Assembly (NCBI GenBank): GCA_038234855.1
Contig: JBBQSR010000001.1
Location: 1 to 37,299 of the forward strand
DNA: 37,299 bases
DNA from: Ktedonobacterales bacterium
Lineage (GTDB): Bacteria > Chloroflexota > Ktedonobacteria > Ktedonobacterales > JACDGC01
Direction: 5' to 3'
Shown: piece after piece, positions 9,860 to 27,894 of the stretch
How positions within the stretch are numbered: the stretch's first letter is position 1
Layout: every line of letters begins with the position of its first letter
Program-made: the position numbers and the translations under genes
The notes under the pieces: generated by a model
Told to the model about the DNA's origin: nothing
The model's input: only the letters and a program-made list of their open reading frames with translations
Database searches by the model: none

Positions 9860-12121
9860 TTAGGCGGCGTGACGGCGGCGCTGCGTCGACTGTCCCTTCT
9901 GCGCGTGGATGCCGCCACGCGGGGGGGCACCCGTCGCGTCTTCCAACTGGAAGACGTCTACGGCCTGGCTCAGGCTCGACGCCAACTCGCTCAGCGTCTG
10001 CGTCGCGGCGACCGTCTCTTCTACCTGGGCCGCCATCTCCTCGGTCGCGGCAGAGACTTCCTCGGCGGCGGCGCTATTTTCCTCGCCGACGCTGGCGACG
10101 ACGTTGATCGCCTGGCTGATGTGCTCGGTGCTCTGCACCATCTCTTGCGCCTGGGCCTCGGTGCGGGCGACGCGCGCCACGCCTTCTTCCACCTGGGTCA
10201 CGCCCAGCTCCATCGCCTCCACCGCCAGGGTGGTTTCGCGCTGCGTCTCGCGGATGATCTCTTCGATCTCCTTGGTGGCGGAGGCGGAACGCTCGGCGAG
10301 CTTGCGCACCTCGTCGGCCACCACCGCGAAGCCACGCCCGTGCTCGCCCGCCCGTGCCGCCTCGATGGCGGCATTCAGCGCCAGCAGGTTGGTTTGGCCA
10401 GCCAACTCATCGATGGTCTGGATGATCTGCCCAATCTCTTGCGAGCGTTTGCCCAGTTGGCGGATGCGCTCAGAGGTGAGGCTGACGCTGCCCTTGAGGG
10501 CATCCATCGTCTGCATTGTTTCCAGCGATTCCGTCTGGAGCGCGGTGCTCTGCTGGGCAAGCTGCTCGATCTCTTGGGCGGCCTCAGCGAGCTGAGCGCT
10601 CTGGCTCTGCGCGCCCGTGGCGACCTGCTGAATGGTCTGGGCCACCTGCTCGGTCGCGTGGCCCGACTGTTCGGCGGCCTCGACGATCTGGTGCGACGCG
10701 GTGGCGACGCCCGCGCTCATCTCGTGCACATGGCCCACCAAGGTGCGCAGATTTTCGATCATCACATTCAGCGCCTTCGCCATGATGCCCGCCTTGGGGT
10801 TGCCCTCATAGCGCGACATCATGTAGTCGATGCGGGCCAGGTCGCCATCGCCGACGCGCTGCGCGATCTCGGCATACTCGATCTGGCGATGGACGATCTT
10901 GTTGAGCGATTTCGCCAAGATGCCCTTTTGCGGGTCGCTGGCGTAGCGCGCCTCGATGGCATCGATGGGGGACAGTTCGCCATGGGCGAGCAACTCAGCC
11001 GATGCGACGAGTTCGCGCAGATTGTCGGTCATCTTCACCAGCGACTTCGCCAGTTCGCCGGTCGACTTGGGCTTGCCCTCGTAGCGTGCCGAGATGTATG
11101 CCAGGTCAGGCACTTCGCCATCACCGATGCGGTGGGCCAACTCGGAATATTCTTGCTGGCGATGGATGATCGTGTTGAGCGACTTCGCCAAGATGCCCTT
11201 TTGCGCGTCATTGGCGTAGCGCGCCTCGATGGCATCGATGGGATGCAATTCCCCCTCGGCGAGGTGGTTCGCGCTGGTGACCAATTCGCCCAGGTTCGTC
11301 AGGAACCGCTGGAAGGCGAGCGTCACCTGGCCCATCTCGCTCTGCCCGCCATAGCGCGCTACCACGTCATCTATGGTGAATTGTTCACCGTCCGCCACGC
11401 GGTTGGCGATGGCGCTCAGCTCGCTCAGCGGGCGCGCGAATTGGCGAGCGATGACGAACCCGAGCAGGATCGCCAGCCCGCTGGCCAGCACCAGGACGAT
11501 GGCCAACGTCCACCGGAGTCGCGCGAACGTGTTGAGCGCATCGGCCCGCGCGGCATCGGCGCTCTGCTGGTCGAGCGTTACCAGCGTGTTGAGGTCGCGG
11601 CTCAGGGCATCGCCCTGGGGAATCAGCTTGGTGCGCAGTAGGTTCGCCAATTGGGCGTTGGCGTTACTCGTCGTGGACGACACGAGCGGTGTCAGATCGC
11701 TGAGGGTCGTGAGCCAGCCGGTCAGGCTCGTCTGAAAATCGCTGACGCCCTGCTGCTGCTGTGCGCTGTGCGCGAGGGCCTGGTACGTCGCGAAATCGCT
11801 CGTAAGCTGTTGCTTGTCCGTCTCGACTAATTTCATATCCGCCGCCGTCGCGGTGGAGTCGGCGTCCAGGGCGGCCTGGCGGAAGTCGCGGCCCGTCTTG
11901 TAGATGTCTGCGCGGGTCTGGGTCAGCGCTCTGACGCCCGGCAGGTTGCGATCCGTGATCTGGGTGGTTTGGCCAGCCATCTGGCTCATGCCCCAGATGC
12001 CGATGCCGCCGACCACCACCATGAAGGCGCAGGTCACCAGGAATGCCCCGATCAGCAGGGGTTGGGTGCGGACGTTTCGGAGGCTGGATCCGTTGCCAGG
12101 GGTCGTGAGTGTGGGAGTCAT
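9860..12121 (-). CDS. methyl-accepting chemotaxis protein: 4HB-type sensor, poly-HAMP array, MA signalling domain
   Basis: Signalling hairpin [37 protein letters not shown]-terminal TM, periplasmic helical region, second TM. Five HAMP-like repeats. ATG 12121 has GAGG 6 nt upstream; an in-frame ATG at 12133 is the alternative start. Confidence 0.9.
10720..11270 (-). repeat. internal tandem duplication (273-bp period) inside the MCP gene
   Basis: GTTGAGCGAyTTCGCCAAGATGCCCTTTTGCG...GCGTAGCGCGCCTCGATGGCATCGATGGG occurs at 10901 and 11174. It encodes two 91-aa di-HAMP-like units ([21 protein letters not shown]...). Confidence 0.8.
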
Positions 12122-12164
12122 CGAAAACCTCATGTATGCATGGAGTCGTCATCCATGACAGCAA

Positions 12165-12181
12165 GGGCGCGCGTCGCGCCC
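12165..12181 (-). terminator. GC hairpin after murE
   Basis: GGGCGCG-ACG-CGCGCCC on the minus strand, followed by TTGCTGTC. Lies 65 nt downstream of the murE stop. Confidence 0.35.
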
Positions 12182-12245
12182 CCCGTGTTGCTGTCCTCTA
12201 TCGGCACATGGGCTTATCGCCTGAAGTTCCCTAAATGTGCCCCCG

Positions 12246-13811
12246 CTAGTCCTCGCCTTGCGGGGCGGGCCGGAGGGCGGCCAGGGCCTCGCGCGCGACC
12301 TGGCGGTCGTCCCACGGCAGCGACGCGGTGCCGATGACGATGCTCTGCTCGTGGCCCTTGCCGCACAGCACCACGGTGTCGCCCGTCCTTGCCCGCGCGA
12401 AGGCCAGTGCGATGGCGTCGCGTCGCCCCACCTGCATGGCGAAGTCATCGCCCTCCGTCGCCCCGGCGGCGAGCGCCCCCGCGGCGATCTCGCGCAGGAT
12501 GGTCGCGGCGTCCTCGGTGCGGGGGTCTTCGTCGGTGATGACGAAATAGTCGGCATATTCAGCGGCGACCGCGCCCATCTCGGGGCGCTTGGTGTGGTCG
12601 CGGTCGCCCGCCGAGCCAAAGACGGCGATGAGCCGCCCGCGCGTGAGCGGGCGCAGCACCGTCAGCACCTGGCGCAGACTTTCCGCCGTGTGGGCGTAAT
12701 CGACGATCACGGTGAAGTCTTGCCCCGCCGCGACGCGCTCCATCCGCCCTGGTACGCCGCCAAAGTCGGCCAGCGCGCGGGCCATCTGCGCAGGCGTGGC
12801 CCCTTGGCTCCAACACGCGGCGATGGCGGCCAGGCAATTCGCCACGTTGAAACGGCCCACCAGCGGCGATGCCACCGGGAAGGTCGCGCCATCGGGCAGC
12901 GTCACGTCGAAGCGGTTGCCGTCAGCGCGCAGGTCCAGGTGCCGCGCGTTGACATCTGCCCCCGGATTATCGATGCCATAGGTGAGGATGGGCGCGCGAC
13001 AAAAGCGGCTGAGGTAGGCATAGCTCGCGTCATCGGCATTCAGCACGCAGACGCGCGGCACGATGAAAGGCGGGCCTGGCTCCTTGGTTTGCTGCGGATC
13101 GACCCGCTCAAAGAGCATCGCCTTCGCGCGCCAATATGCCTCTTTGCTGCCAGGCACTTCGAGATGTTCGCTGGTGATGTTCGTCACCACCGCCACGTCA
13201 TAGGCGATGCCCGCCAGTCGCTCTAGCTCTAGCCCGCTGGAGGTCGATTCGATGACGGCGTAATCGACGCCGCCCGCCACCATCTGCGCCAGCACGTCTT
13301 GCAGTTCGGGCGCTTCGAGGTTGGTGAAGCGTGTCTCGTTCGCGATGCGCCGGGGACCGATCTTGAAATCGACCGTGCTGGTGAGGCCACTGGTGTGCCC
13401 GGCTTCGTCCAAGATGGCGGCGATGAGGTTGACGGTGCTGGTCTTGCCATCCGTGCCGGTCACGCCGATGACGGCCATCCGCCGCGAGGGCTGGTCCGCG
13501 AGGGCACAGGCCAGCAGCCCCAGCGCCCGCGCGGGAAGGTCGACGCGCAGGTAGCCGACCCCCTCGGGCAGCGCCAGCGCGGCTCGCTCGGGCGACCCCA
13601 CGATCACGCTCGCCCCGCGCGCCACGGCCTCCGCGATGTAGGCGTGCCCATCGGCGCGGTGGCCGGGCCGCGCCACGAAAAGCGCCCCCGGCACCACCGC
13701 CTGGGAGTGATAGGTGATGGCCGTCACCTCGACCGTGTCCGAGCGCGGTCCGTCATAGGTGAAGGTGATGTCCGCGTGGTCAAAGCCGCGCAACAGTTCA
13801 GCGAGACGCAT
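12246..13811 (-). CDS. murE: UDP-N-acetylmuramoyl-L-alanyl-D-glutamate--diamino-acid ligase (MurE)
   Basis: 521 aa. Mur-ligase P-loop GVTGTDGKTST, DYAHTAESL, and a C-terminal specificity region ITDEDPRTED (canonical meso-DAP enzymes have DDNPRTE). Confidence 0.9.
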   Translation of the reverse strand: MRLAELLRGFDHADITFTYDGPRSDTVEVTAITYHSQAVVPGALFVARPGHRADGHAYIAEAVARGASVIVGSPERAALALPEGVGYLRVDLPARALGLLACALADQPSRRMAVIGVTGTDGKTSTVNLIAAILDEAGHTSGLTSTVDFKIGPRRIANETRFTNLEAPELQDVLAQMVAGGVDYAVIESTSSGLELERLAGIAYDVAVVTNITSEHLEVPGSKEAYWRAKAMLFERVDPQQTKEPGPPFIVPRVCVLNADDASYAYLSRFCRAPILTYGIDNPGADVNARHLDLRADGNRFDVTLPDGATFPVASPLVGRFNVANCLAAIAACWSQGATPAQMARALADFGGVPGRMERVAAGQDFTVIVDYAHTAESLRQVLTVLRPLTRGRLIAVFGSAGDRDHTKRPEMGAVAAEYADYFVITDEDPRTEDAATILREIAAGALAAGATEGDDFAMQVGRRDAIALAFARARTGDTVVLCGKGHEQSIVIGTASLPWDDRQVAREALAALRPAPQGED

Positions 13812-21573: not shown

Positions 21574-21989
21574 TCATTCCATGGCAATCGCTTCGATCTC
21601 CAGCAGCCAGGGCGACGCCAGGGTCTGCGCGACGATGACGGTGAGCGCAGGTTGGTGAGTCCCCAGGTAGCTACGGCGAATCTCGCCATTGGCCGTTGCC
21701 TGCTCCCTGTCGGTCAGGAACGTCGTCACCTTCACCAGATTCGCCGTCGTCATGCCAGCGGATTGCAAGATCGCCACGATGTTGCGCCACACCGCATGGC
21801 ACTGGTCCGCGAACGCTTCGGGGACCTGTCCATCCGGTAATTCGGGGATCTGTCCGCTGATGAAGAGCATGCGCGTCCCCTGCTGTACCTCAAGGCCGTG
21901 CGTGTAGCCACCCTTGGGGCTGGTGCGGTGGCGGGATTATGCGCGATGATGTCCACGAATAACCACCTCTTATCGGATGCGTTGTTCAT
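21574..21989 (-). pseudogene. RidA/YjgF/L-PSP family protein interrupted by a 1-nt frameshift
   Basis: ATG 21989 gives MNNASDKRWLFVDIIAHNPATAPAP, then the frame is lost. The other frame continues KGGYTHGLEVQQGTRMLFISGQIPE... to stop 21574. The junction lies in a C4 run (plus strand GGGG, 21916-21919); one extra C would restore a contiguous RidA sequence. Confidence 0.7.
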
Positions 21990-22258
21990 ATTCGGTGCGC
22001 GTCCCTATCCATACCCATTGTATTTCATTGCCATTCATGAGACCTAGGGTACGGTAAAGCGAATTTATGCGCGCCGACCAGAGGGAAGGAGTGCCGCTTC
22101 TTACTTGTTTGAATTGAATGCCAGGGTGCAAGGGGTTTTGTTTCTATAACAAATAGACATCGCGCGCCTGTTGCTGCACGGTTTTGGGGAGACCATCCAA
22201 TAATACACGAAACTACTTGGTGGTGCGTGAACGATACGTTACAACGATACGTTACCAT
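21970..22258 (-). pseudogene. decayed RelE/ParE-family toxin gene
   Basis: A non-track frame reads FRVLLDGLPKTVQQQARDVYLL*KQNPLHPGIQFKQVRSGTPSLWSARINSLYRTLGLMNGNEIQWVWIGTRTEYEQRIR. In-frame TAGs sit at 22213-22215 and 22144-22146. A 13-bp tandem duplication at 22231-22256 shifts the ATG (22256-22258) out of this frame. The ATG overlaps the antitoxin stop (ATGGTAA). Confidence 0.7.
22231..22256 (-). repeat. 13-bp tandem duplication at the 5' end of the toxin pseudogene
   Basis: ACGATACGTTAC at 22231-22242 and again at 22244-22255, with one spacer base (13-nt period). Confidence 0.9.
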
Positions 22259-22473
22259 GTATCGCTCACGTCTTGCAGGGTACGCTTGCGTTCCCCTTCT
22301 TTGGCTTCGGCCACGAGTTGATCGAAAAACGCCTGTGATTCGGGGCGCGCGAAAAGCTCATCCCAACGCTTATCATCAGCAAGTTCTTGGGCAAACGCTT
22401 CGGCCCACTGGTCCTGTTGCTCCGTGGGAAGTTTTTCGATTTCAGCGACGAGTGCTCGCAATCTTTCCGTCAT
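22252..22473 (-). CDS. putative type II antitoxin (intact), partner of the decayed toxin
   Basis: 73 aa. RBS AAAGGAGG lies 7 nt upstream. EIEKLPTEQQDQWAEAFAQELADDKRWDELFARPESQAFFDQLVAEA follows the pattern of small helical antitoxins found upstream of RelE/ParE toxins. Locally low GC. Confidence 0.55.
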   Translation of the reverse strand: MTERLRALVAEIEKLPTEQQDQWAEAFAQELADDKRWDELFARPESQAFFDQLVAEAKEGERKRTLQDVSDTW

Positions 22474-22495
22474 CGCACAACCTCCTTTTTCCGTT

Positions 22496-22504
22496 ATGAT
22501 ATCA
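22496..22504 (-). promoter_or_regulatory. extended -10 element TGATATCAT for the antitoxin module
   Basis: The minus strand reads TTGTTGATATCATAACGGAAAAAGGAGG, about 22 nt upstream of the ATG. Confidence 0.4.
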
Positions 22505-22535
22505 ACAATGACGAGGTTGCGCTAGATGAAACGGC

Positions 22536-25500
22536 TCACTCCTCGTCGGTCCCCAGCATCGCGGCAATCTCGGTTAGACAGCCCGCGCGGTCCTCGATCC
22601 AGCGGCGATAGGGCAGGCGATGCACTTGCCAGCCAGCGCGCTCGAGGATGGCTTGGCGGGCGACGGGGTCGATGCCGTCGGGCAGGGGATTGGCAGGGGG
22701 GACGCCATCGCACTCGATGGCGATGGTCGCGTTGCGGTGCGACGCGACGAGGGGGATCTGGAAGCCCGCCACGGGGTAGTCGAAGTAGGCGGTGTAGCCC
22801 TGGTCGCGCAGCGCCCCGGCTAGCTCGCCCACGAAGCCGTCGCGCGCGGCTTGCTCGGCCTCCTCTTCCTCCTCCAGCAGGTCGGCGGCATATTGCAGGT
22901 AGAGCGTCAGCAGATGTTCGCTGGGTAGGCCCTTGATGTCGAGCGAGGTGAAGATCACCTGGCGCTGGCGGGCACGCGTCACCGCGACGTTGAAGAGGTT
23001 TTCTTGGTTGAGGAAGGTGATGGTCGCGCGGTGCGAGGTCGGGTCTACCACGAAGCTCAGCAGCATCACATCGCGCTCGTCACCCTGGAAGGTGTGCGCC
23101 GTACCGACGGCGACCTGATGGTCTTGCAGCGTGCGCGGCTTCAGCTTCGCCGCCAGTTGCTTGTTGAGGTAATTCACCTGATCGCGGTAGGGCGAGAGGA
23201 TGCCGATGCTGGTCTTGCTGCGCGCGTCGCGCTTGGCCTCGGCCTTGGCGATGCGCTCGATCTCTTTGAGGATGGCATCGACTTCCTCGACGTTGTAGCC
23301 CTCTTTGCGGCGCTTGCCATTGGGGACTTTCTTCAGTTCCACGCTGCGGAGGCCGATGGTGTCGGGCCGCTTGCTCATGATGCGCAGCGACCCGCCGTAG
23401 AACTGGCGATTGCTGAACTCGATGATCTGCGGCATGCTGCGGTAATGCTCATCGAGCAGGATCACGTCGTCCTGGGTGGGCAGTGCCTGGTTCACCGCGT
23501 CGAGCAGGCTGTTGGTGCGGTAGTTCCATTGTTCGCGCTCGATGGCGGTCAGGCCATGCTGCGTGGCGATGGCGCGCAGGCGATCCTCGCGCAGGAAGGA
23601 GAGGTGGCGCAACTGCTTCGGGTCGCCGCAGACGACGGCATGGTGCGCGCGGTACAGCAGCGGCAGCGCGCTGGCGATGTCGCACTGCGACGCCTCGTCG
23701 ATGATGACCAGATCGAACATCTCGCGCACCAGCGGCAGGAACTCGGCGACGTGCTGGTTGGTGACGGCCCAGATGGGGAAGGTCCGCAGCAGCGCGCGAA
23801 AGTCCATCTCGCGGAAGATGGCGTCTTGCGCGGCATCGGACTTCGCGTTGAGCGCGGTCTGGAAGGCGGTGAGGGCGCGGCGGTCGGTGCGCAGCGCCTG
23901 GGCCAGCGCGTCGCGGCGGCGCACGGCCAGCAGTTCCGCGACCAAGTGGCCTCGGTCGTCGCGGGCGCGGGCATAGCCGGTGAAAAGGGCGTTCAGGTCG
24001 CCGTGGCCTTCCAGCGCGCGGGTCGTCGCCAACCATTGCAGCCGGGCACGCTCGCGCTCGGCGATCTGGGGGATGCGGTCGCGCTGCTCCTCGGCGATAT
24101 CCAGTTCGTTGCAGAGGGCGGTCATCTGGTTTTGGCCGCGCCGCTGCATGGCCCAGCCGACCAGTGGCGCGGTGTTTTCGCCGAGCTTGCGCGCCTCTTC
24201 GTAGCGCCGCAGGATCTCGTCGGGACCGATGGCGGCGGCGGCCTCGCGGGCATAGTTGGGCGTGTTGAATTTGTCGAGGTCCATATGGGTGCCGGTCCAG
24301 GTCAGTTCCAGGTCCAGCACGGCGACGATCTCGCGGCTGAGCCGCTCCATCTCGTCGTCGGCGGTGCGCAGCCGATCCTCCAGCATGGCGACCTCGCCGG
24401 GGCGCGCGGCCTGGGGCATCCCCTGCGGGCCGGTGTTGGTGAGCAGGCCGTTCAGCCAGCCGCGCATCTCTTCGCGGTGGCCCCGGTCGCCGCCCCGCAA
24501 GATGAAGGTCTGCGATCCCAGGTGTGGCTGTAACTTTTCGATGACGACATCGACGGCTTTATTCATCTTCGAGGTGATGAGGACGGTTTGGCCGCGCGCG
24601 ACGGCATCGAGCACCACCTGCGCGGTGGTGAAGGATTTGCCGGTGCCGGGGGGGCCGATGACGAGCGACAGCGGGCGGGTGCGGCCATGGCGCACGACCG
24701 TCTGCTGCGCCAGGCTCAGTTCGGCGGCGGCGAAGATCGGCTCGACATCTTTGCTGGGGTCGCCGTTGCGTTCGGCGGCGGAGAGGGCCTTGTCATCGAA
24801 GATGGCGGCGAGCGGCGTGGAGGTGTCGCCCGTCTGACCGAGCAGTTGCAGTTCCGTCAGCACGCCCTTGGCCTCGGTGGGGCGCGCGGCCAGCAACATG
24901 GCGGAGGCGCAGACCAGGCGCATCGGCCCGCTCATCGCCGCGCGTAGCTCTTCTTCGCTCATCAGCGTGGGGAAGGCGCGTAGTGTCTCGGTGTCGAGAT
25001 CGGGCAGCAGTTCGCCAACCAGGCTGGCGAGTTCGCGCAGGGCGTCGTCGGCGAAGGGCGGCGCGGGCACCTGCGAGAGAATCGCCTCGGCATAGGCCTG
25101 GGCCTGTTCGTCGCTCTCGGCGTCGATGAAGGTGGAGAGCAGCGGGAAGTTGACATGTTGCTCATCCAACGCGACCGAGACGAAGGACTGGCTGCCCTCC
25201 AGTTCGACGCGCGCGGGGTAGTAGAGCAGTGGGGCGCAGAAGCGTTCGCCCGCGTTTTTGCCGCGCGCCAGCCCCTTACCCACCAGGAAGACCGAGCCGT
25301 AGATGAGATATTTTTCGCGGCGGTTGATCTCCGCGGCGTTGTGGACCTCGATGCCCGTCTTCACTGGGACGCTCATGCGCGTGTCGGCGGCGGTCAGCAA
25401 CGTCTCGGTGCCCGACGCGAAGACGCGATAGTCCGTCTGCTCGAAGACATCTTTGAGGATGCCCCCGCGCGCGTCCGCAGCGAAGCAGTCGTGGAAGTAC

Positions 25501-25619
25501 CGCGCGACGCGCAAGAAACCCTGCGAGGCATTCGCCGGAGGAGCCTGCCCCGCCAGCGACACCCCAAACGGATCGGGCGCGGTGGTGGATGGCGTGGATT
25601 GGGCATCGAGACGTGTCAT
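22536..25619 (-). CDS. Upf1/DNA2-like SF1 helicase (DUF4011-like N-terminus, AAA_11/AAA_12 core) fused to a C-terminal DUF559/Vsr-like PD-(D/E)xK endonuclease domain
   Basis: 1027 aa. Walker A GPPGTGKS (nt 24633-24656), motif II IIDEASQ (about 23685-23705), VCGDPKQL, LDEHYRSMPQIIEFSN, GTAHTFQGDERD, NVAVTRAR. C-terminus: FDYPVAGFQIPLV...ATIAIECDG...ARQAILERAGWQVHRLPYRRW. RBS GAGGAGAAG. Confidence 0.9.
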   Translation of the reverse strand: MTRLDAQSTPSTTAPDPFGVSLAGQAPPANASQGFLRVARYFHDCFAADARGGILKDVFEQTDYRVFASGTETLLTAADTRMSVPVKTGIEVHNAAEINRREKYLIYGSVFLVGKGLARGKNAGERFCAPLLYYPARVELEGSQSFVSVALDEQHVNFPLLSTFIDAESDEQAQAYAEAILSQVPAPPFADDALRELASLVGELLPDLDTETLRAFPTLMSEEELRAAMSGPMRLVCASAMLLAARPTEAKGVLTELQLLGQTGDTSTPLAAIFDDKALSAAERNGDPSKDVEPIFAAAELSLAQQTVVRHGRTRPLSLVIGPPGTGKSFTTAQVVLDAVARGQTVLITSKMNKAVDVVIEKLQPHLGSQTFILRGGDRGHREEMRGWLNGLLTNTGPQGMPQAARPGEVAMLEDRLRTADDEMERLSREIVAVLDLELTWTGTHMDLDKFNTPNYAREAAAAIGPDEILRRYEEARKLGENTAPLVGWAMQRRGQNQMTALCNELDIAEEQRDRIPQIAERERARLQWLATTRALEGHGDLNALFTGYARARDDRGHLVAELLAVRRRDALAQALRTDRRALTAFQTALNAKSDAAQDAIFREMDFRALLRTFPIWAVTNQHVAEFLPLVREMFDLVIIDEASQCDIASALPLLYRAHHAVVCGDPKQLRHLSFLREDRLRAIATQHGLTAIEREQWNYRTNSLLDAVNQALPTQDDVILLDEHYRSMPQIIEFSNRQFYGGSLRIMSKRPDTIGLRSVELKKVPNGKRRKEGYNVEEVDAILKEIERIAKAEAKRDARSKTSIGILSPYRDQVNYLNKQLAAKLKPRTLQDHQVAVGTAHTFQGDERDVMLLSFVVDPTSHRATITFLNQENLFNVAVTRARQRQVIFTSLDIKGLPSEHLLTLYLQYAADLLEEEEEAEQAARDGFVGELAGALRDQGYTAYFDYPVAGFQIPLVASHRNATIAIECDGVPPANPLPDGIDPVARQAILERAGWQVHRLPYRRWIEDRAGCLTEIAAMLGTDEE

Positions 25620-25677
25620 ATGGTCTTCTCCTCAACGGCTGCTGGCCTGGTTCCCCGCGCATGCGAGCGCACCACTA

Positions 25678-25706
25678 ACCATACCGTGACACAAGAGCAG
25701 CGTCAA
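25678..25706 (-). promoter_or_regulatory. sigma70-type promoter TTGACG-17-TATGGT for the helicase gene
   Basis: The minus strand reads CTTTGACGCTGCTCTTGTGTCACGGTATGGT. The -10 lies about 58 nt upstream of ATG 25619. Confidence 0.5.
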
Positions 25707-25826
25707 AGATCCTAGGACTTCTGGCAAGGGGCGATGGGAGCATCTGGGGGACATCTTCGTTGTCTATGCTTGCTGCGTCAAGATCGGGCGGGTGTGAGGC
25801 ACGCACCTGTCTTTTGGCGGGGGGCA

Positions 25827-25835
25827 TGCTACAAT
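25827..25835 (+). promoter_or_regulatory. extended -10 element TGCTACAAT
   Basis: Identical 9-mer at 26850-26858 in front of the paralogous gene. About 85 nt upstream of ATG 25920. The leader contains an 8-bp stem, CGGGCATG (25837-25844) / CATGCCCG (25873-25880). Confidence 0.5.
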
Positions 25836-25919
25836 TCGGGCATGATGGCGTATCGGGTATCATCACCTGAACCATGCCCGGTGCTCACTTCATCTACGCA
25901 GAGAAAGGTATCATCGCCC

Positions 25920-26735
25920 ATGTCGAATCCGACCGAACCCGAGAGCGTGCCCACCACGCAGCCGTTTCAGCCGCCTCCCGGTGAGGGCATGGTGACGCCG
26001 CCCCCCGCGAATGCCTATCCGGGGTATCCGGCGGGCTACCAGCCCAACACCACACCGCCCGTGACGCCCAGCCCCGCGCCGCGCCGCCGGGGTGCCGGGG
26101 GGGCCATCGTCGCAACCCTGGTGATCCTGGCCGCGTTGGCCGGTGGCGGCCTGTATGCCCTGGGCCGCAATGGCACGGGGCCGCTGGCGAATATCGTCGC
26201 CACGGCGACCATCGCCGCGACCGCCACGCCCACGTCGCCGCCGACCGCGACGCCAACCCCCACGCCCCCGGCTGGCTATTCCTATTTCATCGCGACGGAC
26301 CGCAGCTATCGCATCGCGTATCCCGTGGGCTGGGTGCCGCTGGAGCAGACGGCGAATGGCGTGACGGGCCTCATCATCGCGTCGGACCTGAACGCGACGA
26401 ATATCTTCCTGGTCTTTCCCTCGCCGCAAAAGGTGCAGCCGAGCCAATATCAGGCTTTCCTGACGCAGGTGCTGAACTCGCTGCCCATAAAGAATCAGGT
26501 CGCGGATGTCAAGCTGAGTAGCACGACCACCACGGCCACCCTGGGCGCGAACACCTGGACGAGCGACACTGGCACCCTGACCTTGCAGGGCAAGCCTTAC
26601 AGCGGCACCGTGCTCGGCACCGATTGGAAGACGGGCACTTTCCTGGCTGTCTATGCCGCGCCGACCGCGACCTTTACCGCGACCGAGCAGCAATATTTCA
26701 CGACGATGGCGACGAGCCTCACCATCTTCCCCTAA
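25920..26735 (+). CDS. single-pass membrane protein: Pro-rich cytoplasmic tail, TM, PT-linker, extracytoplasmic beta-rich domain (PsbP/Mog1-like by impression)
   Basis: 271 aa from ATG 25920, with GAAAGG upstream. TM is GAIVATLVILAALAGGGLYAL; linker is ATATPTSPPTATPTPTPP. The C-terminal domain is shared with 26947-27894 (SY.IAYP..W, LGANTW, APTATF). Confidence 0.8.
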   Translation: MSNPTEPESVPTTQPFQPPPGEGMVTPPPANAYPGYPAGYQPNTTPPVTPSPAPRRRGAGGAIVATLVILAALAGGGLYALGRNGTGPLANIVATATIAATATPTSPPTATPTPTPPAGYSYFIATDRSYRIAYPVGWVPLEQTANGVTGLIIASDLNATNIFLVFPSPQKVQPSQYQAFLTQVLNSLPIKNQVADVKLSSTTTTATLGANTWTSDTGTLTLQGKPYSGTVLGTDWKTGTFLAVYAAPTATFTATEQQYFTTMATSLTIFP

Positions 26736-26946: not shown

Positions 26947-27894
26947 ATGTCGTATCCTCCGTATGGTCAGCCCAATCCGCCGCCGGACTATAACCCCAAC
27001 GCGCAGCCGCCCAACGTGCAACCGCCGAATCCAGGGCAGGGCGGCCCATCGTCGCCGTACCCGCAGCCGAGCGGCTATCCCCAACAGCCCTATCCGCAGC
27101 AGCCTTACCCGCAGCAAGACGGATACCCGCAGCCAGGGGGATATCCACCGTCACAGCCCTATCCGCAGGGCTATCCACCGTCGCAACCGTATCCCCAGCA
27201 GGGCGGCTATCCACCCAATTATCAGCAAGGTGGCGCGCCAGGGCTGCCCCCACCGCAAAAGAGCGGCTCACCCGTCGCGCTGATCGTCGGCATCTTGGCG
27301 GCGGTCATCGTGGTGACGCTCATTGGCGGACTCCTCATCGTGGGCAAGGGCGGCGCGGGTCCGCTTGCCGCGCTCGGTGCCACCGCGACGCCGGTGGGCA
27401 CCGCCACGCCGACGCCGTTGCCGCCTACACCGACCGCGATCCCTGCCCCGGCGGGCTTCACCACCTACACCGCGAAGGATGGCAGCTACAGCATCGCGTA
27501 CCCGAGCGACTGGACGCCCTCACCTGCGAATTCAAGCCTCACCGCAGTCTTTCTCTCGCCCGACCTGCAAGACTATTTCCTCACACTATCGTTTCCGGGG
27601 CTGCAACCAACCTCACAATATCCCTCGTTGGCATCAAGCTTCGCAAAGGGATTGGGGGCGACAAATGTGAAGTTGTCGCCGACGTTCACCCACGCGTCGC
27701 TCGGAGCCAACACGTGGAATAAAGAAACGGGGACGATGACCTACACTGGTCAGGCGTACACTATCGACATCCTCGGGACGGACCACGCAGGCAGCACCTT
27801 CTTCGTCCTCTATTTCGCGCCAACCGCGACGTTCAAGTCCGTCGAAACCACCGACTTCACGGTGATGACGACGAGCGTGGCCTTCAAGAAATAG
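26947..27894 (+). CDS. single-pass membrane protein: Pro/Tyr/Gln-rich repeat tail, TM, PT-linker, extracytoplasmic domain; paralogue of 25920-26735
   Basis: 315 aa. N-terminal ~104 aa of YPQQP / GYPPSQPYPQ repeats. TM is VALIVGILAAVIVVTLIGGLLIV; linker is TATPVGTATPTPLPPTPTAIPAP. The upstream GAAAGGTATCGTCATCC-ATG resembles the paralogue's GAAAGGTATCATCGCCC-ATG. Confidence 0.8.
   Translation: MSYPPYGQPNPPPDYNPNAQPPNVQPPNPGQGGPSSPYPQPSGYPQQPYPQQPYPQQDGYPQPGGYPPSQPYPQGYPPSQPYPQQGGYPPNYQQGGAPGLPPPQKSGSPVALIVGILAAVIVVTLIGGLLIVGKGGAGPLAALGATATPVGTATPTPLPPTPTAIPAPAGFTTYTAKDGSYSIAYPSDWTPSPANSSLTAVFLSPDLQDYFLTLSFPGLQPTSQYPSLASSFAKGLGATNVKLSPTFTHASLGANTWNKETGTMTYTGQAYTIDILGTDHAGSTFFVLYFAPTATFKSVETTDFTVMTTSVAFKK
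27058..27234 (+). repeat. coding low-complexity tandem repeats (YPQQP / GYPPSQPYPQ)
   Basis: For example GGATATCCACCGTCACAGCCCTATCCGCAG is followed by GGCTATCCACCGTCGCAACCGTATCCCCAG. The repeats are in frame within the CDS. Confidence 0.8.

What the first reader, a model, noticed from the sequence alone, without database searches (positions are those of the whole stretch)
22536..25706. Upf1-like SF1 helicase fused to a C-terminal DUF559/Vsr-like nuclease: candidate single-gene nucleic-acid conflict (defence) system
Sequence: one 1027-aa ORF has its own TTGACG-17-TATGGT promoter. It combines three parts.
- A ~300-aa N-terminal region of the kind found in DUF4011 proteins.
- A complete SF1B Upf1/DNA2-type helicase core: GPPGTGKS, IIDEASQ, VCGDPKQL, GTAHTFQGDERD, NVAVTRAR, with a long helical insertion between motifs I and II.
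- A ~90-aa C-terminal PD-(D/E)xK module of the DUF559/Vsr type (ATIAIECDG ... ERAGWQVHRLPYRRW).

Established knowledge: helicases of this clade (COG1112, AAA_11/AAA_12) fused or paired with nucleases are the effectors of Nhi and Mokosh anti-phage systems. Those use an N-terminal nuclease or a PLD domain.

Inference: I know of no characterised function for the DUF4011-helicase-DUF559 arrangement. The gene lies directly beside a low-GC toxin-antitoxin remnant, a typical defence-islet neighbour.
Basis: partly seen in the sequence, partly recalled or inferred. Interest (0 to 1): 0.7.

Follow-up and report, generated by a model that had tools for sequence, protein, structure and literature searches.

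The report
Compact Hhe-like helicase–nuclease, native gene
This is a real 1027-residue gene for a Upf1-type helicase fused to a Vsr-like nuclease domain, a shorter uncharacterised cousin of the known anti-phage protein Hhe, but it behaves like a native, strongly conserved chromosomal gene, not a gene of a defence island.

Summary
It has four parts:
- a divergent DUF4011-type N-domain;
- an SF1B Upf1/Sen1/DNA2-like core;
- a 235-aa all-helical insertion;
- a C-terminal MTES_1575 (Vsr-family) domain.

This layout is not unknown: it is that of Hhe, a validated single-gene anti-phage system, and CoCoNuT III-B helicases also carry a directly fused Vsr domain. The protein is not a member of either. 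It scores 130 bits against a cutoff of 2000 for Hhe, lacks DUF3320, and has no McrBC partners.

It belongs to an uncharacterised compact family of ~900-1070 aa (651 clusters at 50% identity), found mainly in a Ktedonobacterales subclade and in Bacteroidota/Saprospiraceae.

Evidence against a typical defence gene:
- 13 of 13 neighbourhoods are housekeeping, with no assembled defence system.
- Composition is native (GC3 0.87).
- Purifying selection is strong (dN/dS 0.04).
- There are no close plasmid or phage copies.
- Microsynteny is partly kept within its clade.

The adjacent toxin-antitoxin remnant is a foreign low-GC scar in a variable insertion spot. The canonical first catalytic Asp is Pro956 here; each clade keeps two carboxylates at shifted positions. 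The biological role is unresolved, and I favour endogenous nucleic-acid surveillance over defence. Interest is modest.

The parts
22536..25619 (-). Complete gene, 1027 codons plus stop: a compact DUF4011-like / Upf1-like SF1B helicase / Vsr-like (MTES_1575) protein.
   Evidence: ORF listing. 100% identical protein in the database and about 100 full-length orthologues. Pfam, PADLOC and NCBIfam hits. AlphaFold model with pLDDT 83.8 and pTM 0.75.
25539..25619 (-). aa 1-27: disordered, poorly conserved N-terminal tail.
   Evidence: pLDDT below 50 for residues 1-27. dN/dS 0.24-0.50, the highest of any segment in the comparison with L003 and exceeded only by the short aa 901-927 linker in the comparison with L001.
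24720..25538 (-). aa 28-300: N-terminal alpha/beta domain, a divergent DUF4011-type domain with conserved C45, D49, R51, E102, CAPL 128-131, N157 and GVLxEL 252-257.
   Evidence: Invariant columns. DUF4011 Pfam hit in 7 of 18 family members but not in the query. hhalign E 2.6e-4 against DUF4011 N-termini. No PDB fold match, best E 0.098. One BFVD match to another 'AAA domain protein', E 6.6e-6. The profile finds 651 clusters. dN/dS 0.05-0.15.
24486..24719 (-). aa 301-378: first part of RecA-like domain 1A, with Walker A GPPGTGKS (aa 322-329, window 24633-24656; K328).
   Evidence: Pfam AAA_11, AAA_30 and AAA_19. Invariant I321-T331. PDB matches to UPF1/NAM7 residues.
23781..24485 (-). aa 379-613: all-helical, coiled-coil-like insertion between motifs Ia and II, in the position of the Upf1 stalk/1B-1C. 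No OB-fold strands are predicted.
   Evidence: DSSP on the model shows only helices, e.g. 409-450, 510-537 and 542-578. Walker A to motif II spacing is 316 aa here, 241 aa in compact relatives and 534-978 aa in Hhe-like proteins. dN/dS 0.04-0.32.
22920..23780 (-). aa 614-900: rest of domain 1A (motif II DEASQ 641-645, motif III GDPKQL 665-670) and RecA-like domain 2A (motif V FQGDERD 844-850, motif VI VTRAR 880-884).
   Evidence: Pfam AAA_11 and AAA_12. Invariant columns. PDB SEN1, IGHMBP2, UPF1 and DNA2 sequence matches. Foldseek E 1e-22 to 1e-13. dN/dS 0.016-0.08.
22839..22919 (-). aa 901-927: acidic linker (helix 903-913, EEEEEAEQ).
   Evidence: Model secondary structure. Variable between genera, with dN/dS 0.6 against L001 and L002.
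22539..22838 (-). aa 928-1027: Vsr-family REase-fold domain (Pfam MTES_1575) with a remodelled acidic site. Pro956 stands where canonical domains have Asp; Glu969 and Asp971 form 'IECDG'; G952, G972, R994 and W1007 are invariant.
   Evidence: Pfam PF18741, 48.3 bits against a gathering score of 38.2. Alignments of the three clades and of canonical MTES_1575 domains. dN/dS 0.06-0.20, so the domain is under constraint. No PDB sequence relative.
25628..25633 (-). GAGGAG ribosome-binding site, 8 nt upstream of the ATG.
   Evidence: Read directly from the sequence.
25678..25706 (-). Promoter-like TTGACG-17-TATGGT in the 114-bp divergent intergenic region. Not distinguishable from chance.
   Evidence: Scan found 1 site where 0.9 +/- 0.8 are expected in shuffles.
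22252..22473 (-). Not part of the helicase unit. Intact 73-aa antitoxin-like ORF with its own AAAGGAGG ribosome-binding site, 63 bp downstream of the helicase stop; foreign composition.
   Evidence: ORF and sequence. GC3 0.527 against 0.75-0.87 in neighbours. No Pfam or NCBIfam hit. Absent at the same site in L003.
21985..22215 (-). Not part of the helicase unit. ParE/RelE-like toxin pseudogene with in-frame stops.
   Evidence: Frame translation LPKTVQQQARDVYLL*KQNPLHPGIQFKQV...IQWVWIGTRTEYE. Pfam ParE_like E 3.4e-4, 21 bits, below the gathering score of 24.4. GC 0.476.

Best explanation
What it is (shown, confidence about 0.9): a stand-alone gene of a Ktedonobacterales (Chloroflexota) genome. 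It encodes a compact member of the DUF4011 / Upf1-like SF1B helicase / Vsr-like nuclease superfamily, with the same domain order as the anti-phage protein Hhe. It has a much shorter helical insertion and no DUF3320 tail. It belongs to a distinct, uncharacterised family of ~900-1070 aa.

How it most likely works (inferred from the families):
- The two RecA-like domains hydrolyse ATP and translocate 5'->3' on single-stranded DNA or RNA, as Upf1, Sen1, IGHMBP2 and DNA2 do.
- The helical insertion forms a stalk that regulates or oligomerises the motor.
- The N-terminal DUF4011-type domain binds or senses the substrate.
- The C-terminal Vsr-fold domain, held by a flexible acidic linker, nicks or cleaves the nucleic acid met by the motor. 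It would use a two-carboxylate metal site that in this clade has moved onto one strand (E969 and D971, with Pro at the canonical Asp position).

Biological role (inferred, confidence about 0.45): a native, vertically maintained chromosomal function in endogenous nucleic-acid surveillance or genome maintenance, such as processing of aberrant DNA/RNA structures, flaps, R-loops or damaged ends. I do not think it is a mobile defence-islet gene. The neighbouring TA remnant is unrelated.
For: Identity:
- Pfam AAA_11, AAA_12 and MTES_1575.
- All helicase motifs are invariant.
- Foldseek and PDB matches to the Upf1-like clade.
- DUF4011 link through family members and hhalign.
- Collinear layout with Hhe-like proteins, differing in insertion and tail length.

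Native and conserved:
- About 100 full-length orthologues at 55-96% identity, all in Ktedonobacterales metagenome-assembled genomes.
- A second orthologue-like identity gradient in Bacteroidota/Saprospiraceae.
- 651 clusters carry the N-domain, almost all ~910 aa.
- GC3 0.874 and codon-usage correlation 0.88 with neighbours.
- dN/dS 0.040 at dS 0.57 against the L003 orthologue, lower than the flanking RidA (0.116) and the Pro-rich genes (0.07-0.22). Every domain is constrained, including the C-domain at 0.06-0.20.
- Partial microsynteny with Pro-rich membrane paralogues down to 78% identity.

Not in defence or mobile context:
- 13 neighbourhoods across at least 3 phyla are housekeeping: rpL20/L35-pheST, GAPDH, BCKDH, rpoA/ribosomal genes, dcw cluster, his operon, pur genes, heme synthesis.
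- PADLOC on 111 neighbours gave only generic or transposon hits.
- No close relatives in plasmids, phages or IMG/VR; the best is 27-28% identical.

Precedent: a large DUF4011 gene is a core gene of every P. aeruginosa isolate (10.1101/2022.11.11.516204).

Nuclease probably retained: the wider family has D at the strand-2 position in 94% and D at the first strand-3 position in 91% of 101 representatives. The two Ktedonobacterales clades each keep exactly two carboxylates (D/A/D, and P/E/D), strictly conserved within each clade.
Against: - All experimentally characterised or well-argued prokaryotic proteins with this module combination (Hhe, Mokosh, CoCoNuT III-B, PADLOC candidate PDC-S37, NCBIfam ProA) are defence proteins.
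- The family is patchy across phyla and seems absent from cultured Ktedonobacteria. One search shows a gap from 55% to 39% identity. This is typical of accessory genes.
- Known defence models detect few systems in Chloroflexota, so absence of recognisable defence neighbours is weaker evidence there.
- Synteny is lost beyond about 78% identity.
- Purifying selection does not exclude defence.
- No direct evidence for any housekeeping pathway, and no conserved partner gene.
- Loss of the canonical Asp (P956) could mean the nuclease is inactive in this clade.
- Polarity, substrate (DNA or RNA) and cleavage are inferred, not shown.
Confidence: 0.45

Rival explanations
1. Single-gene anti-phage (or anti-plasmid) system, a 'mini-Hhe'. 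The helicase senses phage replication or recombination intermediates, or phage-induced changes. The Vsr-like nuclease then degrades phage or host nucleic acid, possibly as abortive infection. It is encoded in the core genome, not in an island.
For: - Same domain order as Hhe. The best PADLOC and NCBIfam hits are PDC-S37 (1e-53), ProA (6e-56), MkoC/MkoA and Hhe.
- Hhe works as a single gene and is triggered by phage DNA-metabolism functions (PMC11482910).
- CoCoNuT III-B also fuses Vsr to an Upf1-like helicase with a coiled-coil insertion.
- Patchy phyletic spread across Chloroflexota, Bacteroidota, Verrucomicrobiota and Melainabacteria.
- The 3' flank of the gene collects TA-type selfish modules in the window and in L001.
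Against: - Scores are far below the curated cutoffs: 130 of 2000 for Hhe and 190 of 1500 for ProA. Only the helicase and REase parts align.
- 13 of 13 neighbourhoods are housekeeping, with no assembled defence system (and the neighbourhood calls).
- Native composition and dN/dS 0.04.
- No plasmid, phage or provirus copies.
- Orthologue-like gradients in two lineages.
- The canonical catalytic set is not conserved.
Confidence: 0.3
2. Helicase/translocase with a catalytically dead Vsr-fold domain. In this clade the C-domain has lost the essential first Asp (Pro956) and serves only as a nucleic-acid-binding or protein-interaction module. The protein then remodels DNA, RNA or RNP without cutting. 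This is about mechanism and is compatible with either biological role.
For: - Pro956 replaces the Asp that is present in 94% of the wider family and in canonical MTES_1575 domains. The YH and RDRDR motifs are missing.
- No acidic position is invariant across the family.
- Inactivated PD-(D/E)xK domains retained for binding are documented in CoCoNuT CnuC proteins (PMC11090510).
Against: - Every clade keeps exactly two carboxylates at neighbouring strand positions, strictly conserved within the clade: 16 of 16 P/E/D and about 73 D/A/D. This looks like active-site migration, not decay.
- Glu969 appears in the same clade that lost Asp956.
- The C-domain is under purifying selection (dN/dS 0.06-0.20), although a binding role would explain that too.
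Confidence: 0.2
3. The helicase and the adjacent toxin-antitoxin remnant form one defence islet or functional unit.
For: The antitoxin-like ORF starts 63 bp downstream on the same strand, with no predicted terminator in between.
Against: - The TA segment is compositionally foreign: GC 0.48-0.54 against 0.67.
- The toxin is a pseudogene.
- In the 96%-identical orthologue locus L003 the same site holds a NUDIX gene, a split tyrosine recombinase and another ORF instead.
- No other orthologue has this TA pair.
Confidence: 0.03
4. Component of a CoCoNuT-type (McrBC-linked) type IV restriction system.
For: Upf1-like helicase with a coiled-coil-like insertion and a directly fused Vsr-like domain, as in type III-B CnuH.
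Against: - No McrB/CnuB GTPase, McrC/CnuC (DUF2357), CnuA or CnuD gene in the window or in any of the 12 other neighbourhoods.
- The N-terminus is DUF4011-like, not a Sul7s-like wHTH.
- No OB-fold strands are predicted in the insertion.
Confidence: 0.01

Closest known systems
Hhe (HheA), single-gene anti-phage system (NCBIfam NF042953 'DUF4011 domain-containing anti-phage protein Hhe'; PADLOC PDLC02194)
   Same: Same order of modules: a DUF4011-type N-domain directly before Walker A, an Upf1-like SF1 helicase with a large insertion between motifs I and II, and a Vsr-family MTES_1575 REase-fold domain after motif VI. It is a single gene with no obligatory partner.
   Different: - About 1000 aa against about 1300-1900 aa.
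- Insertion of 316 aa against 534-978 aa.
- No DUF3320/wHTH tail.
- Only 130 bits against a cutoff of 2000, aligned to model positions 1255-1677 of 1797.
- The N-domain is barely recognisable as DUF4011.
- The canonical ID...ECDG...YH...RDRDR nuclease motifs are reduced to P...ECDG.
- It lies in housekeeping contexts and is compositionally native.
PADLOC candidate PDC-S37 and NCBIfam 'anti-phage protein ProA' (NF058533)
   Same: Best-scoring defence-library models (1e-53 and 6e-56). They share the C-terminal half of the helicase plus the REase-fold domain, query aa ~622-1022.
   Different: The models are 1550 and 1903 positions long. The query covers only about 410 positions. The ProA score is 190 against a cutoff of 1500. 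The N-terminal and central parts are not shared.
CoCoNuT type III-B CnuH (PMC11090510)
   Same: UPF1-like SF1 helicase with a large helical, coiled-coil-containing insertion after Walker A. A Vsr-like PD-(D/E)xK domain is fused directly to the helicase without a wHTH adaptor.
   Different: CnuH is encoded with CnuB/McrB, CnuC/McrC, CnuA and CnuD, and none is present here. It has an N-terminal Sul7s-like wHTH and an OB-fold, whereas here there is a DUF4011-like N-domain and an all-helical insertion (neighbourhood calls).
Mokosh (MkoA/MkoC) and Nhi helicase-nucleases
   Same: Upf1-like (COG1112, AAA_11/AAA_12) helicase core coupled to a nuclease. MkoC and MkoA models hit the helicase core at 8.5e-49 and 8.2e-47.
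   Different: Mokosh uses a PLD-family nuclease, and type I has a second gene. Nhi has an N-terminal nuclease. There is no PLD hit in Pfam and no Nhi hit in PADLOC.
Eukaryotic Upf1 / Sen1(SETX) / IGHMBP2 / DNA2 SF1B helicases
   Same: Closest solved structures (Foldseek E 2.7e-22 to 3e-14). All SF1B motifs are present, and an accessory insertion in domain 1A lies between motifs Ia and II. DNA2 likewise combines the helicase with a PD-(D/E)xK nuclease.
   Different: Only 13-17% identity. The accessory domains differ: no CH domain, and no 1B beta-barrel is predicted. The nuclease is C-terminal and Vsr-type, whereas DNA2 has an N-terminal RecB-type nuclease.
Core-genome DUF4011 gene flanking defence hotspot cDHS1 in Pseudomonas aeruginosa (10.1101/2022.11.11.516204)
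   Same: A DUF4011-family helicase gene that is a conserved chromosomal gene and sits at the edge of a variable insertion region.
   Different: It is a large canonical DUF4011 protein in a different phylum. Its own function is equally untested. The variable region here is a small insertion spot, not a large hotspot.

Membership tests
Upf1-like SF1B helicases (Pfam AAA_11 + AAA_12) | Both Pfam domains above the gathering score, and helicase motifs I, II, III, V and VI intact. | tested here: met
   AAA_12 103.9 bits and AAA_11 71.9 bits, with a cutoff of 27. Motif residues are invariant in 41 sequences.
Upf1-like SF1B helicases (Pfam AAA_11 + AAA_12) | Fold similarity to solved Upf1, Sen1, IGHMBP2 and DNA2 cores. 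| tested here: met
   Foldseek E 2.7e-22 (SETX) to 3e-14 (DNA2) with a model of pLDDT 83.8. phmmer against PDB gives 6e-16.
Upf1-like SF1B helicases (Pfam AAA_11 + AAA_12) | 5'->3' ATP-dependent translocation or unwinding on ssDNA or RNA. | not testable with these tools
   Needs biochemistry.
MTES_1575 / Vsr-family REase fold (Pfam PF18741) | Pfam score above the gathering score. | tested here: met
   48.3 bits against 38.2; aa 929-1021 cover profile positions 1-95 of 96.
MTES_1575 / Vsr-family REase fold (Pfam PF18741) | Canonical acidic set: D on strand 2 and E-x-D on strand 3, plus the YH and RDRDR motifs, as in DUF4011 proteins. | tested here: not met
   The query has P956 / E969 / D971 and lacks YH and RDRDR. 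The main Ktedonobacterales clade has D/A/D, and the wider family has D/D/hydrophobic.
DUF4011 (Pfam PF13195) | A Pfam hit of the N-terminal region. | tested here: inconclusive
   No hit for the query at E <= 10. 7 of 18 family N-domains hit, best E 4.6e-5. hhalign E 2.6e-4 at 42% probability, collinear, with a shared CAPLL-x-P motif. Same position directly before Walker A.
Hhe (HheA) | Full-length match above the curated cutoff (NCBIfam NF042953, 2000 bits). | tested here: not met
   129.6 bits. The best stretch covers model positions 1255-1677 of 1797. PADLOC Hhe E 2.7e-26 over 1355-1776 of 1911.
Hhe (HheA) | Domain order of DUF4011, then SF1 helicase, then Vsr-like nuclease, in one polypeptide. 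| tested here: met
   with the caveat that the DUF4011 link is weak.
Hhe (HheA) | Long central insertion and C-terminal DUF3320/wHTH extension, with size about 1300-1900 aa. | tested here: not met
   1027 aa. Insertion of 316 aa against 534-978 aa. Tail of 144 aa against 172-333 aa. No DUF3320 Pfam hit.
Hhe (HheA) | Anti-phage phenotype. | not testable with these tools
   Needs phage challenge.
Mokosh | PLD-family nuclease domain (MkoB or the N-terminus of MkoC). | tested here: not met
   No PLD family in Pfam at E <= 0.1. MkoA and MkoC models align only to the helicase core.
Nhi | Match to Nhi models, with a nuclease N-terminal to the helicase. | tested here: not met
   No Nhi model among PADLOC hits at E <= 0.1. 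The nuclease-fold domain is C-terminal.
CoCoNuT type III-B | UPF1-like helicase with a helical coiled-coil insertion and a directly fused Vsr-like domain. | tested here: met
   definition from PMC11090510.
CoCoNuT type III-B | Operon with CnuB/McrB GTPase and CnuC/McrC, plus CnuA and CnuD. | tested here: not met
   No such genes in the window or in 12 other neighbourhoods.
Defence-island resident gene (guilt by association) | Orthologues enriched next to known defence systems or mobile elements. | tested here: not met
   111 neighbours of 7 loci were scanned with PADLOC. The only hits were TnpB, a sigma54 activator, an ABC ATPase, a Schlafen/AlbA protein 6 kb away and one MNT-like NTase. Pfam contexts are housekeeping. 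The sample is small (13 loci), and defence models are poor for these phyla.
Type II toxin-antitoxin (ParE/RelE), neighbouring remnant | Intact toxin and antitoxin ORFs with family matches. | tested here: not met
   The toxin has in-frame stops. ParE_like scores 21 bits, below the gathering score of 24.4. The antitoxin-like ORF is intact but has no family hit.

The most novel reading that the evidence does not exclude
The compact ~900-1070-aa family (DUF4011-like N-domain, Upf1-like helicase, Vsr-like domain) is not an immune gene. It would instead be a domesticated, lineage-conserved bacterial counterpart of eukaryotic Upf1/Sen1/DNA2-type enzymes. It would act as a housekeeping helicase-nuclease for genome maintenance or RNA/R-loop surveillance in Ktedonobacterales and Saprospiraceae. 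Its Vsr-type active site would have migrated between strands during evolution. That would give the first endogenous role for a bacterial Upf1-like helicase-nuclease, and a non-defence branch of the Hhe superfamily.
Probability: 0.4. Interest if true: 0.6.

Novelty: new variant of a known kind. Interest (0 to 1): 0.35.

Why it matters
The architecture itself is not new: Hhe and CoCoNuT III-B already show it. The case for a new defence system is therefore weak.

What is of some value is a coherent, uncharacterised compact family of 651 clusters. It keeps the Hhe module order at half the size. It sits in the native core-like genome of two bacterial lineages under strong purifying selection. It shows an apparent relocation of the Vsr-type catalytic carboxylates.

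- If it is defensive, it is a minimal Hhe that would be easier to study than the ~1800-aa protein.
- If it is not, it marks a housekeeping branch of a superfamily now annotated wholesale as anti-phage. That matters for automated defence-system annotation and for understanding what bacterial Upf1-like helicases do.

Tried and rejected
- Promoter claim: the scan finds the site, but at chance frequency, so it is not used as evidence.
- Direct DUF4011 assignment of the query: no Pfam hit even at E <= 10. It is kept only as a family-level remote relation.
- Fold of the N-domain: a separate AlphaFold model (pLDDT 80) gave no PDB match (best E 0.098, TM 0.12). It gave one BFVD match to another helicase-associated 'AAA domain protein'. 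The fold remains unassigned.
- C-domain against PDB by sequence: nothing.
- Dcm-Vsr-like pairing: one distant homologue (L021) lies 40 bp behind a C5 DNA methyltransferase. The pairing did not recur in 12 other loci, so I rejected it as a family feature.
- Conserved partner gene: all-against-all clustering of ORFs within 6 kb in 21 loci found no family-wide partner. It found only Pro-rich membrane paralogues within the query's own clade.
- TA-helicase unit: rejected by the L003 comparison.
- CoCoNuT membership: rejected for lack of McrBC partners.
- Genome-collection scan for prevalence: the pattern-based scan returned only 12 loci. Presence or absence across all Ktedonobacterales could not be measured.
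- Taxon names for the wider family: cluster look-up gave almost no names.
- 'ProA' and PDC-S37: no paper found.
- Look-up of the window's own contig: not on record.

Full report
**1. Observation**

The window contains one 1027-codon ORF at 22536-25619 on the minus strand. Its product is 100% identical to a database protein from a 37,299-bp NCBI contig. It has about 100 full-length orthologues of 1017-1142 aa and 55-96% identity. Nearly all come from Ktedonobacterales (Chloroflexota) metagenome-assembled genomes.

- Walker A GPPGTGKS, aa 322-329, with K328;
- DEASQ, aa 641-645;
- GDPKQL, aa 665-670;
- FQGDERD, aa 844-850;
- VTRAR, aa 880-884.

Pfam gives AAA_11, AAA_12 and MTES_1575 (aa 929-1021, 48.3 bits against a gathering score of 38.2), but no DUF4011 hit.

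The TTGACG-17-TATGGT site exists at 25706-25678. One such site is found where 0.9 are expected by chance, so it carries no weight. A GAGGAG ribosome-binding site lies 8 nt before the ATG.

**2. Anatomy**

An AlphaFold model built on the family alignment is confident (pLDDT 83.8, pTM 0.75). It shows these segments:
- a disordered tail, aa 1-27;
- an alpha/beta N-domain, aa 28-300;
- RecA-like domain 1A, split by a 235-aa all-helical insertion (aa 379-613, with helices up to 42 residues);
- RecA-like domain 2A;
- an acidic linker;
- a small C-terminal domain, aa 928-1022, with a helix / three strands / helix / strand / helix order.

Foldseek places the core with SETX/Sen1, UPF1, IGHMBP2, Aquarius, DNA2 and ZNFX1, at E 2.7e-22 to 2.2e-13. 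phmmer against PDB sequences agrees.

The N-domain was modelled alone (pLDDT 80). It has no PDB fold match (best E 0.098). It has one BFVD match, to another 'AAA domain protein' (E 6.6e-6).

Its link to DUF4011 is indirect but consistent:
- 7 of 18 family N-domains hit Pfam DUF4011, best E 4.6e-5.
- hhalign against the N-termini of bona fide DUF4011 proteins gives a collinear match. Query 88-167 aligns to target 83-162 at E 2.6e-4 and 42% probability, around a shared CAPLL-x-P motif.
- The domain sits directly before Walker A in both groups.

**3. The family**

A profile of the N-domain was searched against 1.84 billion representative proteins. It finds 651 clusters, 329 of them at E <= 1e-30. 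The top 150 are almost all 900-940 aa, with the domain at the extreme N-terminus.

These proteins align with the query from about aa 40 to about aa 1020, so the three-part architecture is shared. A search with one of them shows an identity gradient from 85% to 38%, largely in Bacteroidota/Saprospiraceae genomes.

Motif spacing shows one layout of variable size:

| Group | Walker A to motif II | Motif II to VI | Tail after motif VI |
|---|---|---|---|
| ~910-aa relatives | 241 aa | ~240 aa | 141 aa |
| Query | 316 aa | 240 aa | 144 aa |
| Hhe-like DUF4011 proteins | 534-978 aa | ~240 aa | 172-333 aa |

**4. Relation to known systems**

PADLOC and NCBIfam hit the following, but only over the helicase and REase parts and far below the curated cutoffs:

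| Model | E-value | Score and cutoff |
|---|---|---|
| PDC-S37 (PADLOC) | 1e-53 | 180.5 bits |
| ProA (NCBIfam) | 6e-56 | 190 bits, cutoff 1500 |
| MkoC (PADLOC) | 8.5e-49 | 164.5 bits |
| MkoA (PADLOC) | 8.2e-47 | 158.1 bits |
| Hhe (NCBIfam) | 7.9e-38 | 130 bits, cutoff 2000 |

- Hhe is a validated single-gene defence system 'containing helicase and nuclease domains' (PMC11482910; 10.1101/2024.04.14.589459). It is annotated as a DUF4011 protein (PMC11232893).
- MTES_1575 was defined as a Vsr-family REase fused to an SF1 helicase (PMC3710099).
- CoCoNuT type III-B CnuH is a UPF1-like helicase with a coiled-coil insertion and a directly fused Vsr-like nuclease. It always occurs with McrB and McrC homologues (PMC11090510). 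No such genes are present here.

The protein is thus a compact variant of a known architectural kind and a member of none of the named systems.

**5. The nuclease domain**

Canonical MTES_1575 domains in DUF4011 proteins read ID...IECDG..YH...RDRDRLR. The pattern differs between groups:
- In 101 representatives of the compact family, the strand-2 Asp is present in 94% and an Asp at the first strand-3 position in 91% ('xD...IDLIG'). The third position is hydrophobic.
- The main Ktedonobacterales clade has D/A/D ('VDVV...IACDGD').
- The query's clade has P956/E969/D971 ('IPLV...IECDG'), strictly conserved in its 16 members.

Only G952, G972, R994 and W1007 are invariant.

Each clade nonetheless keeps exactly two carboxylates. 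The domain is under purifying selection, with dN/dS 0.06-0.20. I read this as active-site migration, not decay. That reading is an inference; a binding-only domain is a live rival.

**6. Genomic context**

The window's neighbours are:
- a GAF histidine kinase;
- a response regulator;
- a RidA gene;
- two Pro-rich membrane-protein paralogues;
- an MFS transporter;
- an M24 peptidase;
- a UDG-family gene.

Nine orthologue or relative loci on long contigs lie among housekeeping genes:
- rpL20/rpL35-pheST and GAPDH;
- BCKDH and homogentisate catabolism;
- rpoA and ribosomal genes;
- mraZ and the dcw cluster;
- TruB;
- the histidine operon, ending 15 bp upstream of the helicase gene;
- purine synthesis;
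- heme synthesis;
- SusCD.

PADLOC on 111 neighbours gave only generic or transposon-derived hits:
- the Cas12f/Csx1 hits are an IS605 TnpB;
- the RtcR hit is a sigma54 activator;
- the AriA and mad hits are an ABC-transporter ATPase;
- the pAgo hit is a Schlafen/AlbA protein 6 kb away;
- the PDC-S09 hit is an MNT-like nucleotidyltransferase.

No close relatives occur on plasmids, in phages or in IMG/VR; the best is 27-28% identical.

Clustering of all ORFs within 6 kb in 21 loci found no family-wide partner. Within the query's clade, the Pro-rich paralogues recur upstream down to 78% identity.

**7. The TA remnant**

Sixty-three bp downstream of the helicase lie an intact 73-aa antitoxin-like ORF and a ParE/RelE-like pseudogene with in-frame stops. 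The pseudogene hits Pfam ParE_like at E 3.4e-4, below the gathering score.

The segment is foreign in composition. GC is 0.48-0.54 and GC3 is 0.53, against GC3 of 0.87 for the helicase.

In L003 the helicase is 96% identical and the backbone MFS - Pro-rich x2 - helicase - ... - RidA is shared. The same site there holds a NUDIX gene, a split tyrosine recombinase and a 371-aa ORF. The helicase therefore belongs to the conserved backbone, and the TA remnant is a scar in a variable insertion spot. This recalls the core DUF4011 gene that borders hotspot cDHS1 in P. aeruginosa.

**8. Selection and composition**

Against L003 the helicase shows dN/dS 0.040 at dS 0.57. The flanking genes show 0.116 (RidA), 0.217 (Pro-rich 1) and 0.074 (Pro-rich 2).

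Per-domain values against L001 and L002:

| Segment | dN/dS |
|---|---|
| Helicase core | 0.06-0.08 |
| N-domain | 0.15 |
| C-domain | 0.20 |
| Helical insertion | 0.23-0.32 |
| Acidic linker | 0.6 |

Codon usage correlates at 0.88 with the neighbours. The gene is native and constrained throughout.

**9. Verdict**

The domain reading is right. The novelty claim is wrong because Hhe exists. The defence-islet argument is not supported.

Best explanation, with role confidence 0.45: a native, stand-alone, compact Hhe-like helicase-nuclease acting on endogenous nucleic acids.

Main rival, at 0.30: a core-encoded single-gene defence protein, a 'mini-Hhe'.

The evidence cannot decide between them. 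The decisive tests are a full phyletic and synteny census, phage and plasmid challenge with K328A and E969A/D971A mutants, and nuclease and helicase biochemistry.

Noticed in passing
window 21871-22535, compared with L003 6277-9337: The segment just 3' of the helicase gene is a variable insertion spot. The window has a low-GC antitoxin plus ParE-like pseudogene. The 96% orthologue locus has a NUDIX gene, a split tyrosine recombinase and a 371-aa ORF. The L001 orthologue has an MNT-like nucleotidyltransferase (PADLOC PDC-S09) there.
   Followed up: yes
window 25734-26735 (+) and 26947-27894 (+); L003 2064-3008 and 862-1878; L002 6224-9669 (three copies); L001 4492-5409: Tandem paralogues encode Pro/Gln-rich N-terminus, one TM helix and a ~170-aa C-terminal domain, with no Pfam hit. 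They recur upstream of and divergent from the helicase gene in the query's clade, down to 78% helicase identity. Their function, and whether they are linked to the helicase, is unknown.
   Followed up: partly
L021 8765-9961 (+), next to the helicase homologue at 10001-12721 (+): A C5 DNA methyltransferase (PF00145) ends 40 bp before a distant (31%) family member on the same strand. This recalls Dcm-Vsr coupling. It was not seen in 12 other loci.
   Followed up: partly
window 22536-25619 against flanks, compared with L003: Synonymous divergence of the helicase gene (dS 0.57) is 2-4 times lower than that of the flanking genes in the same genome pair (RidA 1.16, Pro-rich 1.22 and 2.66). This could reflect stronger GC3/codon bias (GC3 0.874) or recent recombination. 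It is not resolved.
   Followed up: no
window 21574-21870 (-): The RidA/L-PSP ORF is only 98 aa and starts at Pfam profile position 20 of 121. The L003 copy is similarly short (88 aa). Its 5' end may be truncated or mis-started next to the insertion spot.
   Followed up: no
window 23004-24533 (+) and other long antisense ORFs: A 509-aa ORF lies antisense to the helicase gene. It is one of the shadow ORFs typical of 65% GC DNA, not a gene.
   Followed up: no
protein hits P0017, P0083, P0085, P0093, P0102: Several orthologues on long contigs (33-650 kb) are truncated to 569-999 aa or lack the C-domain. These may be frameshifted pseudogenes or assembly errors. Real gene loss in some genomes would argue against an essential role.
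   Followed up: no
L020 5361-6611, 14520-15758, 20191-21573: One clade-B orthologue locus carries an IS605 TnpB, an IS110 transposase and a TIR_2-domain protein within 10 kb of the helicase gene. It is the only locus with several mobile-type genes.
   Followed up: partly
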